Shown here one piece after another: positions 2,853 to 63,737 of a stretch of DNA of 64,000 bases. Under the pieces are notes generated by a model, which worked only from the letters and a program-made list of their open reading frames with translations, was not told where the DNA came from and did not search any database. The position numbers and the translations under genes were made by a program. The first letter of the stretch is position 1. Each line of letters starts with the position of its first letter. The DNA is from Chrysomallon squamiferum (Eukaryota > Animalia > Mollusca). The stretch lies in the NCBI GenBank assembly GCA_012295275.1, contig CM022665.1, forward strand, positions 46,934,001 to 46,998,000. The letters run 5' to 3'.

Positions 2853-5800
2853 ATGTTATCTGGTTTAATATCAGTGATAGCTGTCACCTTGCTCTGTTGT
2901 ATTCAGGTAAAATGTTTTCATCTCTTTCATCTTTTTATTATTTGTTGTAAAATCTCATTAATGATTTCTTTTATTTATTACAGTCGTCTTGGTTTGTTTT
3001 GAAAGGTGATAGATAATGTGTGCCAGTAAGTTAATGAACTTAAAACGTTGGTAGATTTAAATTGTTTCGTTTTTTAAATGAAAATAATTTTAATATGGCC
3101 TGCTCCATCTACCCACAAAAACCTTTCTCCTTGTTTGTTCAACACATTTCAGTATTTCAATATTTATCTGATTATGTTAAAGATCTGTGAACTTTTTATA
3201 TAATAATAATAATAATAATAATAATAATAATAATAATAATAATAATAACAATAACAATAAAACAGAGTAAAAAATAAAACCAAAACAAACCCAAAACCCT
3301 ATTAAAAATATATATATATGTATTAGAAAATATTAAAAAAACCCATAAAAATTATGAAAAGTAGAAAAAGAGATACCATACAAATCCCAATAAATAAATA
3401 ACAAATAAAAATGCATCAACTAATAAATAAACAATAAATAATAAAATAATATATAAAATAGCAGTAAATAAATCAATAAATAATTATACAAATAATCAAA
3501 CAAACAAACAGTCATCATCACCACAGTTAAACCTGTTTTTTATTTCTTCAGCTGTTCTGATATATTCAAGTACACATAGCTATCTGGAAACACTATTTTA
3601 TCCCTTAGTCAATCTATTTTTTTCATTTATTTTAATCATTATATTAAATATTGTTTTTATTCTAAGAGTAACGTAACTTGTCATATTTCTCACTAACTTA
3701 ATGTAAAACAGGAATTTTTTCTAATTTCAATCTTCGCTGTTATATATATACAAACATATACATATATATATATATGCACATATACAGCTTGTTCGTGCTT
3801 TCATTTTTTCATTCAGCTTCGGTAAATATAACAAAATAGTTATTAAAATAGTAAAGTTTATGACAATTACTAAATACACTTCCCCCACACTAATTACTAA
3901 AAGATCAATTTGAAACATAAAATAACAACTTATTGACGATCAACTGTGTTGATTCATGTCGAGTCGAGAGGTGGGACATGAACATCCTTTTTAACGATGT
4001 TTTCCTGAAGTATTTGAGAGGGGAAACATTCTCTTCTCTTCACTCAAATTTTTAAAAGTGCTGAAATCCGAGCCTCACCGGAATAAACTTCGGTCACATT
4101 TTAAACGACACAGTTTCTTCCTTTTTCACTACAAACGCCACTGTACTTGTGACGGAAGAATGTTTTTATGCGTCTCATTGTCTCATTGTCTGCCGAATCA
4201 GCAAAAGGCTGAGTGGATCGCGGGATTAATCATCTGTAAGAGTTCAGGCTGGACTTGTGTAACTAGTCATATACATATATTTGCTGTTCTGATTGTACTA
4301 ACCCTTATGTGATTGTTGTGACAAATTACAATCATTCTATCCATCTATATTATTTTGTTTTGAATATTTGGCGCTAGTGTCTTCTGTTTGTTGTGTTCTA
4401 GAGTACAAAAAGGTGCTGCGGTACATACATACATACATACATATACATTAAGGGCTGTCAAAATTTTCGTTATTTTCCAAAACTGTCCACAGAACACGAT
4501 ACCTTGTAAATAAAAATAATTAATAATACTTTAATTGTTAAATGTTTTTTCTATAGAAAGAACATTATTACAAATGTGATTGCGTAACGAAGGCCATGGA
4601 ACTGGATTTCATCATAAAACAAGCAAAAAGATACATGGCACAACTATGATTCCTTCAACTTCGATTAAATTCTGAGTAACTATTTACGTATAGAGAAAAA
4701 CGAACACATTGCTTGTCTTCTTACCATGTCATCCGTCACAACCGATCAGAGTTAAGTATTTAGATATGATGGTCCTGAACATCAACAAAATGGTCCCAGA
4801 CATCTAGCTCTTAAATTTTAAATAAATAAAAGGACGTAAGACTTTTCCTTAGTAATAAGATATCCATTTACAAAATGTTTTTAAAAAAACGACTGAATTA
4901 TTGTTCTAACCCCCCCACAAAACAAAACTATAACAAAACACTGACCATCGATCACTGCTATTAATGAGAAATATTTACACACCTGAATATTGATTATTAT
5001 TAAAGCACTGGAATTTCTGGCTATATTAATCACATCTATATTAATTGCTATGTTATTAAGTTACTAGAACATTTTTTAAACGTCTACTATGTATAATGTT
5101 ACTGAAGACAATATATAATTATTATTTTTTAATTGTTTCAGATTTCAGTGTGTTCTTTAGGTGCAGAGTGTGAAACAACAGACAACTGTACCGTAGATAA
5201 CAGTTTCTGTAATAACAGTGTGTGTCAGTGTAGTGATGGCTACTATCAACAAAACACAACATGTTTACCTAGTAAGTTGTCATAATATAGAAAAGAAGGT
5301 GTGCATGCATCTGCTTTTTTTCGTTCTCTTTACATTCGTTTATAATCGATCAAACATTTGTTTTCTGTCTGTTTTTCTTCAAAACGTATCATCAAGATAA
5401 CAAAATAGTACCAGGTGTGACATAAGATGAGTTGAAATTCAAAACATTTACCATGCTGACAGAAGGAGATCATGTGAACAACTAACTGAACAGTGTTACT
5501 GTTGAGATTAGAGGTTGATAATAAAAACAGTTCTTACGAACTTGTATTTAGATTAAATTAACTGAGATAAACATGTTAACTGACTGAACATAATTAAATG
5601 TAACGATTATAATTTTACAACTACGCATGTAGGGGCCCGAGACATGAAGAAGCAGACTGCATGTAATCGTAAACAAACACAAGAATAAATCTTTTGTTAA
5701 GTCACTTTACCTTTTATTGCATCAGTCTGCACAAAATATTTAATTGAAGCCTCCCCCTTTTGAAACTAGAATTACATGCGACAAGTCAAGTGAAATCGAT

Positions 5801-62200: not shown

Positions 62201-63737
62201 CTTCATTCAGACATTAATTTCAGTTCTAAAAGTGAAACAAACTGTATGATGAGATATTTTCTTATTTCAGTAAGCACTCTGCAGGTTACTGGACTTTCAC
62301 AACAATCATCAACACTAAACTCAGTGACAGTGACGTGGACAGAACCAGCAGACACAACGTCTGTTGTAACTGGTTACACAGTGACATGGACACCAGCATC
62401 TACAACTAATACAAACAGCACTGATGTAACAAAGGGATCTACTACATACAACATAATCAGTCTTCAACCTGGAACACAGTACTCAGTAAAAGTGACAACT
62501 AAAATTTCTTACAGATCACAGACAACAGTGACACTGGCAAAAACAGTAAAAACAAGTAAATACTCATCTTAGTCTCAAAAGTAATAAAATTAGTTTGTTT
62601 GACATAAATAATATAAAGATAGTTGATAATTTGAACAAACATTTTGGGAGAGATTGTTCATTAGGTTGAAGGTATGTAATTTTAGTGTTATATCTAAAAT
62701 TTATTTTTTATTACTAAATTGCCATTTATAATTTACATTTCTTAAAATTAAATGAAACCTTTGTATATATATATATATATAATTTTTTTTATTTTAAATC
62801 CTCAATTTCGGTCTGAGGCATTTGCCTCAATGTAGTTATGAGCATCATATACATACATAGATACATATATATATATATACACACACACACATATACATAC
62901 ATACATACATATATATATATATGTTGTTAGAGAGAAAAAAAAGTTACATATTTATAAGATAGATATTTAAATGTCACTTTCCTTGCATCTTCCCAAACTT
63001 CGTATTTTATGATACTAATTTATAACTAACACAGTCTGGATAATAATCATCTGATAGTATAAAGAATATACCTGTTTATTTTTACTAAAGTGCCCTTTAA
63101 GATTAATGTATTTTAGTAATATCACAACAATATTATTAAAATTTAAATCAAAGGTTTCAAAACAATGAGTTTTAATATATAATTATTATTATTATAGGTT
63201 TCAAAATTTCAAAGTTTTATTACATTTCATTTTCTTTTTATGTTAAAATTTTTAAAACCTTTCAGTAATAATAATAATAATAATGTTATTATTAAAACAA
63301 AAAGGTTTTTATTACTATTATTTTCCTTTTATTAATCTTTACTTTATATTTTTAATTTTTACAAGACTGAAATTACTTTGTTTAATTAATATTTATTTTA
63401 TTATTATTATTATTATTATTATTATTATTATTATTATTATTATTATTATTATTATCTAACATTTAATTTACACAGGTGATATCTTATTAAACAGAAACAC
63501 AATTTTTTAAATAAAATTAATCGTGATGGTGCATATTTTGTAATGAATGGATAACTGTGTAACAGTATTTTTACTATTATGAATATAATGATATTTCAGA
63601 AAAACCTTTGGATCAAGAATGTTTAAACAGCAATGAGTGTGGAACTTCAAATGCAGAGTGCAGTGAAAATGAGAGTCAAACGAAAGTTTGTAGATGTGCA
63701 TCTGGATTTTATCCTAAAGATTCGTCTTGTTTGAACA
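50243..63737 (+). CDS. Gene C (3' end beyond window): EGF-like/EB-FN3 repeat receptor, inverted paralogue of gene B
   Basis: Exons 50243-50314 (MFSSKSVLPGLFCVTALILTCGIQ), 53576-53708, 55756-56037, 56779-56901, 57382-57663, 58400-58522, 59004-59285, 61608-61745, 62271-62555 and 63600-63737. All are open and GT-AG, and phase 1-1 after exon 2. Exon 2 is almost identical to gene B exon 2. No TM or tail lies in the window. Confidence 0.88.
53355..53572 (+). repeat. ~43 bp minisatellite (about 5 copies) abutting the gene C exon 2 acceptor
   Basis: Repeated acttgtgtatttgttaatattttaaaatcactatacat variants, the last running into ttaatatttcag. Confidence 0.8.
55750..59100 (+). repeat. ~1.62 kb tandem cassette (FN3 exon + EB exon) duplicated within gene C
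   Basis: Exon starts 55756/57382/59004 and 56779/58400 are 1621-1626 bp apart, with matching introns. Confidence 0.92.

What the first reader, a model, noticed from the sequence alone, without database searches (positions are those of the whole stretch)
2853..63737. Candidate paired-receptor cluster: one ectodomain plan wired either to a tyrosine phosphatase or to an ITAM-like tyrosine tail
Seen: genes A, B and C share a phase-0 signal exon ending in (C/G)IQ and a homologous second exon (ISVCSL../VSLCNL..). A and B also match exon-for-exon and phase-for-phase through the juxtamembrane region (GIIV; RxRR/RxKR..NW..PYRATNDSWID; CNGPL; FACTxxGC; TM ending in phase 2). Right after the TM exon A continues into a PTP domain, while B switches to one unrelated exon rich in phosphotyrosine docking motifs. 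Established: clustered receptors with similar ectodomains and opposing outputs define paired receptors (KIR, LILR, SIRP, Ly49), but there the inhibitory partner recruits SHP-1/2 through ITIMs instead of carrying its own phosphatase. Inference: this is an invertebrate eraser/activator pair derived from an RPTP by tail swapping, with rapidly changing ectodomains, as expected for an immune or self/non-self recognition locus. I cannot establish novelty without a database search.
Basis: partly seen in the sequence, partly recalled or inferred. Interest (0 to 1): 0.88.

Follow-up and report, generated by a model that had tools for sequence, protein, structure and literature searches.

The report
Mollusc phosphatase-versus-ITAM receptor pair
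In what is likely a marine snail, a receptor tyrosine phosphatase gene (its catalytic exon scrambled in this assembly) lies tail to tail with a spliced, expressed sister gene that shares its outer layout but ends in a short tail with an ITAM-pattern motif, and related phosphatase-tailed and tyrosine-tailed genes recur across molluscs, so they likely form an off/on receptor pair that would carry its own phosphatase instead of recruiting one.

Summary
Observation mostly confirmed. A (+) is an R3/PTP10D-type receptor phosphatase. B (-) shares its signal exon, first EB exon and five juxtamembrane/TM exons phase for phase, then switches to one Tyr-tail exon. RNA contigs of two runs splice B's TM to that tail. 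C is an inverted B-type duplicate whose tail lies off the window.

Corrections: A's catalytic P-loop exon is scrambled in the window, though intact in read contigs (probably an assembly error). A/B ectodomains are only about 25% identical (41% next to the membrane), and A has YxN motifs itself.

Comparison adds more. PTP-less relatives occur in abalone, limpet, clams and snails; 9 of 21 such tails carry the ITAM pattern (0.32 expected; three lineages). Their ectodomains are not one clade (AU p=2.5e-49): each groups with its own lineage's phosphatase. A Haliotis asinina pair is 69-81% identical outside, unrelated inside. This is the homogenisation pattern of paired receptors, here with a built-in phosphatase. 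Shared ligand, same-cell expression and opposing signals are untested. The scan noted a similar lectin PTP/ITAM pair in another genome (e1-9507145).

The parts
2853..2906 (+). Gene A signal-peptide exon (phase 0)
5142..14818 (+). Gene A exons 2-15: six EB/EGF-like Cys modules and eight single-exon FN3 domains (phase 1-1), built from internal tandem duplications (5768-8015 vs 8782-11008, 89%)
15770..19198 (+). Gene A exons 16-22: split FN3 domains shared with other gastropod R3 RPTPs
19545..21289 (+). Gene A juxtamembrane block, four exons (GIIV; furin-type RRKR plus PYRATNDSWID; CNGPL; FACT); R3 PTP_tm-type domain
21657..21759 (+). Gene A TM exon (phase 1-2)
22361..25871 (+). Gene A cytoplasmic linker and PTP exons up to IVVHC (KNRY, DYINA, QGP, DFWRM motifs; acid loop reads WED, as in Gigantopelta and Babylonia orthologues)
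26410..26863 (+). Scrambled P-loop exon region: a 51-57-bp tandem array of intron-end/exon-start copies plus frameshifted exon fragments; intact in read contigs
27122..27242 (+). Gene A Q-loop exon with a YxN motif
27647..27708 (+). Gene A last exon with a YxN motif and stop
29598..30123 (+). Orphan inverted copy of B's furin/PYRATNDSWID exon and flanking intron (89.8%); open frame with splice sites
32170..32500 (-). Gene B tail exon, 109 aa: two YxN motifs (YCN, YVN), then YERL-x9-YSKL (ITAM spacing); spliced to TM in RNA; 3' UTR covered by RNA contigs to about 31025
33026..33131 (-). Gene B TM exon (phase 1-2)
33374..35532 (-). Gene B juxtamembrane block, four exons: 35532-35374, 34991-34842, 34438-34342, 33444-33374
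   Evidence: (PTP_tm E 0.0023)
36316..46487 (-). Gene B ectodomain: five EB modules alternating with four FN3 exons; the EB exon 40036-39913 carries a +1 frameshift
49062..49139 (-). Gene B signal-peptide exon (phase 0)
50243..63737 (+). Gene C: head-to-head inverted duplicate of B's 5' part (signal, five EB and four FN3 exons); runs off the window, tail unknown

Best explanation
The window holds a cluster of mollusc R3-type receptors in which one ectodomain plan ends either in a tyrosine phosphatase (A, catalytic exon scrambled here, likely by assembly error) or in a spliced short tail with an ITAM pattern (B), and the two types likely act as an off/on pair. SHOWN: shared exon and phase plan; B's TM-to-tail splice; intact P-loop transcripts of this PTP family; recurrence of PTP-less Tyr-tailed relatives whose ectodomains group with their own lineage's phosphatase. 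INFERRED mechanism: both are cut at a furin-type site near the membrane. Ligand-driven clustering of B would let a Src-family kinase phosphorylate YxxL-x9-YxxL and recruit Syk through tandem SH2 domains; pYxN would recruit Grb2, giving ERK and phagocytic output. The PTP-tailed partner, brought to the same contact by a related ectodomain, would remove those phosphates. Ectodomain exchange (duplication, conversion, exon shuffling of phase 1-1 modules) would keep the two types in step. In this species the A/B exchange is old, so B's closest-matched phosphatase partner may be an off-window paralog.
For: Exon/phase match with z 8.9-13.8 for the four juxtamembrane exons; the pattern resembles the R3 juxtamembrane code 1:1:2:1:2 with one more phase-1 intron (PMC5336234, passages). 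B spliced in 2 of 2 RNA runs laid; one contig has 0 mismatches over three exons. A-like spliced last exons lie in the same run X7. Of 89 juxtamembrane homologues, 48 are PTP-tailed, 37 TM plus other tail, 4 without TM. ITAM pattern in 9 of 21 non-PTP tails of 60-200 aa versus 0.32 expected, and 0 of 33 post-PTP tails. Tyr-tailed ectodomains rejected as one clade, p-AU 2.5e-49; A groups with B and the Gigantopelta Tyr-tailed protein at 100/99. H. asinina PTP and ITAM proteins are 69-81% identical outside, unrelated inside, have neighbouring accession numbers and share the contig length. The Physella pair is 67% identical. ITAM-Syk signalling is reported in oyster (PMC6994640, passages). The R3 member PTPRJ dephosphorylates the ITAM-like receptor CEACAM3 (PMC9418913, abstract). 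Ectodomain-restricted homogenisation marks vertebrate pairs (PMC3210942, abstract).
Against: A vs B ectodomain is only about 25% identical overall and 41% juxtamembrane, far below classical pairs, and the domain order differs. A's P-loop exon is broken in the window, and parts of the array are matched by read contigs of other runs, so a truly dead copy is possible. The deepest PTP contigs belong to a diverged paralog. The 9 ITAM tails come from only three lineages and from predicted gene models. The nearest relative (Gigantopelta P0076) has a single YxxL, not a full ITAM. A carries YxN motifs, and R3 phosphatases can also act positively on Src kinases (recalled). Co-occurrence is at bulk-sample level in one run, tissue unknown; X9 showed B but no A-like contig. 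No ligand, cell type or immune induction data. The limpet and clam pairings in the tree are across species.
Confidence: 0.55

Rival explanations
1. B and C are stand-alone activating (phagocytic or recognition) receptors that took an RPTP ectodomain long ago. A is a broadly expressed housekeeping-type R3 phosphatase, and the two are neighbours only by descent.
For: A/B ectodomains about 25% identical. The A/B split predates Gigantopelta. CpG observed/expected is 0.17 in A's 3' half versus 0.77 in B and 0.67 in C, which suggests different expression regimes (gene-body methylation of constitutive genes is recalled knowledge). A's PTP exons up to the HC motif are 77% identical to Gigantopelta and 59-62% to abalone and whelk.
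Against: It does not explain why Tyr-tailed ectodomains group with the lineage's own phosphatase in at least five starred places, nor the 69-81% abalone pair.
Confidence: 0.25
2. The PTP-less forms are decoys or cis-regulators of the phosphatase (ligand sinks or heterodimer partners) in adhesion, epithelial or neural patterning. The tyrosines are generic docking or sorting signals, not an immune activation motif.
For: R3 RPTPs have developmental roles (search listing). Many Tyr tails lack the ITAM pattern (12 of 21), including the Gigantopelta one. YxxL also fits endocytic motifs (recalled).
Against: Paired YxxL/I at 9-11 spacing near the C-terminus recurs in gastropods and bivalves, 9 observed versus 0.32 expected. 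Rapid duplication and variant alleles or paralogs in reads fit recognition genes better.
Confidence: 0.12
3. Gene A at this locus is a truly broken copy (catalytic exon destroyed by a tandem-repeat rearrangement). The working phosphatase of the pair is a paralog outside the window, possibly the 3' end of gene C. This is compatible with the best explanation at family level.
For: Contigs match parts of the array: X3 26371-26464 with 0 substitutions, X7 26508-26573 with 2; X1 has cover over 26556-26669. Several intron versions and a diverged, deeper PTP paralog exist. C's ectodomain is 65-90% identical to B in FN3 exons.
Against: At 26722, 26797, 26814 (X1, X3) and 27059-27078 (X1) every contig laid differs from the window, with indels, as expected of a bad consensus. 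An A-like Q-loop contig (2 mismatches) starts at the splice point used by the intact P-loop exon. A homopolymer indel elsewhere shows that the assembly is indel-prone. All 34 upstream exons are open.
Confidence: 0.3

Closest known systems
R3 receptor tyrosine phosphatases (PTP10D/PTP4E, PTPRJ, PTPRB, PTPRO, PTPRH)
   Same: A: FN3 run in phase 1-1 exons, PTP_tm-type juxtamembrane domain, single PTP domain, C-terminal YxN (PMC5336234 passages); best hit Gigantopelta PTP10D-like, 84% in one exon.
   Different: EB modules alternate with FN3; the acid loop is WED, within a mollusc clade with non-proline WxD loops; PTP-less ITAM-tailed sisters such as B were not seen in the passages read or in the searches.
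Vertebrate paired receptors (KLRC/NKG2, Ly49, PIR, Siglec-11/16, CEACAM1/3, CD300A/C)
   Same: Clustered genes, related ectodomains, different tails, ectodomains grouping by lineage (PMC3210942 abstract; listing).
   Different: The putative inhibitory member has its own PTP domain, not ITIMs recruiting SHP-1/2. In this species A/B ectodomain identity is only about 25%. Shared ligand and opposite signals are not shown.
Biomphalaria LG5R scavenger class F-like receptors, subgroups 1B/1C, and B. sudanica SudRes1 RPTPs
   Same: Gastropod clusters of polymorphic single-pass receptors in which one ectodomain plan occurs with or without PTP domains, linked to parasite resistance (PMC13712769 section 20; PMC12297450 passages).
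   Different: Those have MEGF/galactose-binding ectodomains and two PTP domains. The text read reports no ITAM and has 0 hits for 'paired receptor'. Here the ectodomain is EB/FN3 with one R3 PTP domain.
Oyster CgIgR; Botryllus FcoR; Hydractinia Alr
   Same: Invertebrate receptors with ITAM or hemITAM tails; CgIgR recruits Syk (PMC6994640 passages; PMC12065747 passages).
   Different: Ig-domain receptors; their inhibitory counterparts use ITIMs; none derives from an RPTP.
PTPRJ acting on CEACAM3
   Same: An R3 phosphatase erases an ITAM-like phagocytic tail (PMC9418913 abstract).
   Different: PTPRJ and CEACAM3 are unrelated genes with unrelated ectodomains.

Membership tests
R3 RPTP (gene A) | Ectodomain of FN3 repeats, single TM | tested here: met
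   Pfam fn3 hits on A exons; TM exon; EB modules are an addition.
R3 RPTP (gene A) | Single cytoplasmic PTP domain followed by a short tail with YxN | tested here: met
   Y_phosphatase hits on four exons, one domain, two YxN motifs.
R3 RPTP (gene A) | Intact catalytic HC(x5)R P-loop | tested here: inconclusive
   Absent in the window; present in DNA and RNA contigs that join A-like flanks; the copy of origin cannot be assigned.
R3 RPTP (gene A) | General-acid Asp in the WPD loop | tested here: met
   WED keeps the Asp and is shared by orthologues; activity not assayed.
R3 RPTP (gene B) | PTP domain | tested here: not met
   TM splices to a 109-aa tail with a stop and UTR; B is R3-derived, not an RPTP.
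ITAM-bearing receptor (gene B) | YxxL/I-x(6-12)-YxxL/I in the cytoplasmic tail | tested here: met
   YERL-x9-YSKL; 446 of 100000 shuffles; none of the five listed tail substitutions I translated hits it.
ITAM-bearing receptor (gene B) | Phosphorylation and Syk recruitment | not testable with these tools
   Needs biochemistry.
Paired receptors | Genes clustered | tested here: met
   A and B tail to tail about 4.5 kb apart; B and C head to head.
Paired receptors | Highly similar ligand-binding ectodomains | tested here: not met
   A vs B about 25% (41% juxtamembrane). Met by the H. asinina pair (69-81%) and the Physella pair (67%), not by this pair.
Paired receptors | Ectodomain-restricted concerted evolution | tested here: met
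   Tyr-tailed ectodomains rejected as one clade, p-AU 2.5e-49; they sit with their lineage's PTP. Repeated independent PTP loss gives the same tree, so the mechanism is not fixed.
Paired receptors | Inhibitory member signals through ITIM and SHP-1/2 | tested here: not met
   A carries a PTP domain and YxN motifs; no ITIM seen in its cytoplasmic exons.
Paired receptors | Overlapping expression in the same cells | tested here: inconclusive
   A-like and B spliced contigs in one bulk RNA run (X7); X9 showed B only.
Paired receptors | Shared ligand and opposite signalling | not testable with these tools
   No ligand or functional data.

The most novel reading that the evidence does not exclude
Molluscs have an old, phylum-wide paired-receptor system built from an R3 receptor phosphatase. 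The brake is the receptor's own PTP domain, the accelerator is a PTP-less sister with a YxN plus ITAM tail, and the two ectodomains are re-homogenised in each lineage to track the same fast-changing microbial, symbiont or self ligands.
Probability: 0.4. Interest if true: 0.85.

Novelty: new variant of a known kind. Interest (0 to 1): 0.7.

Why it matters
It would show a second way to build paired immune receptors, with direct catalysis in place of ITIM-SHP recruitment. It would give candidate ligand-gated roles to orphan R3 phosphatases. It would also offer a signalling logic for the polymorphic RPTP-containing clusters already tied to parasite resistance in snails. Databases hide the class under names such as 'fibronectin-like', 'titin-like' or even 'tyrosine-protein phosphatase 10D-like' although no PTP domain is present. 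The abalone pair makes the idea directly testable in an aquaculture species.

Tried and rejected
No whole genome is held, so no genome-wide count and no extension to C's tail. Word-index searches with B's furin exon found nothing, and with a B FN3 exon only 7 weak generic FN3 proteins. The ESM Atlas did not answer. Scan notes by place and by sequence were empty. WED as a catalytic lesion: rejected, since orthologues share it. Tyr tail derived from the post-PTP tail by deleting the PTP exons: not supported; 12 of 13 tail-versus-cytoplasm comparisons were reached by 14 or more of 500 shuffles, one by 4. One ancient Tyr-tailed subfamily with its own ectodomain: rejected. Recent tail swap in this species: rejected, as a Gigantopelta B-like protein groups with B. 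Two loose-end RNA sequences (at 32061 and 33127) have 0 matches in the window. X9 shows no A-like contig, which is a hole in contig data and no proof of absence. Contig depths were not used as copy numbers or expression levels. No structure or complex prediction was run. Not-in-print claim: eight full-text searches listed no paper describing an RPTP/ITAM pair in molluscs; the library lacks most subscription papers and I opened no supplements (the gene tables of PMC13712769 and PMC12297450 may annotate tails).
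Full report
SOURCE. No genome is held. The best hit of a PTP exon is Gigantopelta aegis PTP10D-like at 84%, and the nearest B-like protein is also from G. aegis. The window is therefore likely from a related gastropod (inference).

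GENE MODELS. A (+, 2853-27708) has 34 exons that read open for 1804 aa up to IVVHC: signal, six EB modules with FN3 domains, further FN3, a four-exon juxtamembrane block, TM, linker and PTP exons (Pfam EB, fn3, Y_phosphatase). A Q-loop exon and a last exon follow, each with YxN. B (-, 49139-32170) has a signal, alternating EB and FN3 exons, the same juxtamembrane block, TM and one tail exon; it reads 878 aa with the frameshifted EB exon left out. C (+, from 50243) is an inverted duplicate of B's 5' part and leaves the window. The other repeats are only 14-40% identical between A and B; B and C FN3 exons are 65-90% identical.

The region 26410-26672 is a 51-57-bp array of intron-end/exon-start copies, exon fragments follow out of frame, and 0 of 16 open in-frame candidate exons carry AGxG. 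Read contigs tell otherwise. DNA contigs of X1 and X3 join 26537 to 26691 into an intact exon start, and continue after 26754 with sequence matching the Gigantopelta protein. An RNA contig of X7 splices 25871 through an intact P-loop to 27120. At several positions every contig laid differs from the window, with indels, which favours a bad consensus. Against that, parts of the array are matched by X3 and X7 contigs. Several intron versions and a diverged paralog (14-18 mismatches in the Q-loop exon) exist, so the intact transcript cannot be assigned to A with certainty. I put assembly error at about 0.65. The WED acid loop is shared with orthologues and keeps the Asp.

B IS REAL. RNA contigs in both RNA runs laid (X7, X9; one study) show joints 34342/33444, 33374/33131 and 33023/32497 (cut +3, that is 33026/32500), all CT..AC on the + strand. 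One X9 contig has 0 mismatches over three exons, and intron bins are largely uncovered. A second transcript shares the tail region but has another 3' UTR, absent from the window, so more Tyr-tailed copies exist. X7 also holds A-like spliced last exons. The tail has two YxN motifs and YERL-x9-YSKL; this spacing arises in 446 of 100000 shuffles, and two YxN in 7355 of 100000.

RELATIVES. A full HMMER scan with the juxtamembrane+TM part of the Babylonia orthologue gave 87 hits. With the two earlier proteins, 89 were classified: 48 PTP-tailed, 37 TM plus other tail, 4 without TM. I dropped 15 tails under 45 aa (likely truncated models) and one 454-aa fused model. Of the other 21, 9 have the ITAM pattern against 0.32 expected; 0 of 33 post-PTP tails have it (14 of 47 PTP rows lacked the anchor and one was left out). 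The 9 come from Haliotis (4), venerid clams (4) and Lottia (1), so three lineages plus B. Other Tyr tails come from Gigantopelta, Haliotis, Physella, Bulinus, Mactra and a bryozoan. All are predicted models.

TREE. A quick tree of 70 rows (B was one codon short there, corrected) and a careful ectodomain-only tree of 35 rows (33 of 89 hits, chosen for Tyr tails, their nearest PTP rows and four WPD outgroups, plus A and B) agree. Tyr-tailed rows are scattered, starred branches force at least 5 changes, and one clade is rejected (p-AU 2.5e-49). A groups with B and Gigantopelta P0076 (100/99), abalone ITAM proteins with abalone PTP P0027 (100/99), Physella Tyr tails with Physella PTP (100/99), and Lottia ITAM with Patella PTP (89/97, not starred). 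H. asinina P0027 and P0033 are 69-81% identical over the ectodomain, and identity collapses after the TM. Neighbouring accessions and equal contig length suggest linkage (inference). B's tail resembles the Lottia tail (score 66; 1 of 5000 shuffles) although their ectodomains do not group, a hint that the tail is older than the pairing. Most other cross-lineage tail comparisons are weak, so repeated PTP loss with convergent ITAMs remains open.

MECHANISM. Shown: architecture, splicing, recurrence and tree pattern. Inferred: Src-family phosphorylation of B's paired YxxL, Syk and Grb2 recruitment, and erasure by the PTP-tailed sister at the same contact. Precedents: oyster CgIgR recruits Syk through an ITAM (PMC6994640, passages); PTPRJ dephosphorylates CEACAM3 (PMC9418913, abstract); ectodomain homogenisation in vertebrate pairs (PMC3210942, abstract). 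SH2 preferences (YxN for Grb2) and the furin consensus are recalled. Against: this pair's ectodomains are about 25% identical, A has YxN motifs, Gigantopelta's tail has one YxxL only, and the CpG profiles of A and B differ.

NOVELTY. A is an R3 RPTP (PMC5336234, passages). B is not an RPTP and, with A, fails two defining tests of classical paired receptors (high ectodomain identity, ITIM), so I do not file it there; it likely works like one. PTP and PTP-less forms in one gastropod cluster are in print for another family (PMC13712769 section 20; PMC12297450 passages), without ITAM or pairing claims in the text I read. Eight searches listed nothing on R3/ITAM pairs; supplements were not opened. 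The scan's note e1-9507145 reports a lectin PTP/ITAM pair in another genome; it is unchecked and is no independent support. Verdict: new variant of a known kind, interest 0.7; this window is a middling example of a pattern best tested in abalone.

Noticed in passing
window 29598-30123 (+): Orphan inverted copy of B's furin/PYRATNDSWID exon with flanking intron (89.8%), open frame and splice sites, 1.9 kb downstream of A and on A's strand; perhaps a relic of juxtamembrane exon exchange.
   Followed up: partly
window 14000-27700 versus 32170-63737: CpG observed/expected is 0.17 in A's 3' half, 0.55 in its 5' half, 0.77 in B and 0.67 in C; suggests germline gene-body methylation of A only.
   Followed up: partly
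window 39966 (-): One extra A in a homopolymer frameshifts a B EB exon that is otherwise identical to its twin; likely assembly error, not tested with reads.
   Followed up: partly
proteins P0002-P0095: The phosphatases that group with Tyr-tailed receptors have non-proline acid loops (WED, WQD, WHD, WWD and others); canonical WPD is confined to 11 other rows. Looks like a mollusc-specific R3 subfamily.
   Followed up: partly
window 33127 (RNA runs X7, X9): A long loose end joins the TM-exon start to sequence absent from the window; could be a paralog or alternative upstream exon.
   Followed up: partly
window 36876-41611 and 55749-59291: Very recent tandem duplications of EB+FN3 exon pairs with introns (94-95% identical) in B and C; A has older ones (about 89%). 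Ectodomain length is changing fast.
   Followed up: no
P0096 (Watersipora subatra): A bryozoan protein with FN3, PTP_tm, TM and an 84-aa Tyr-rich tail without PTP; the class may extend beyond molluscs.
   Followed up: no
window 32261-32425 (-): Read contigs show amino-acid variants and a 3-nt deletion in B's tail between the tyrosine motifs (alleles or paralogs).
   Followed up: partly
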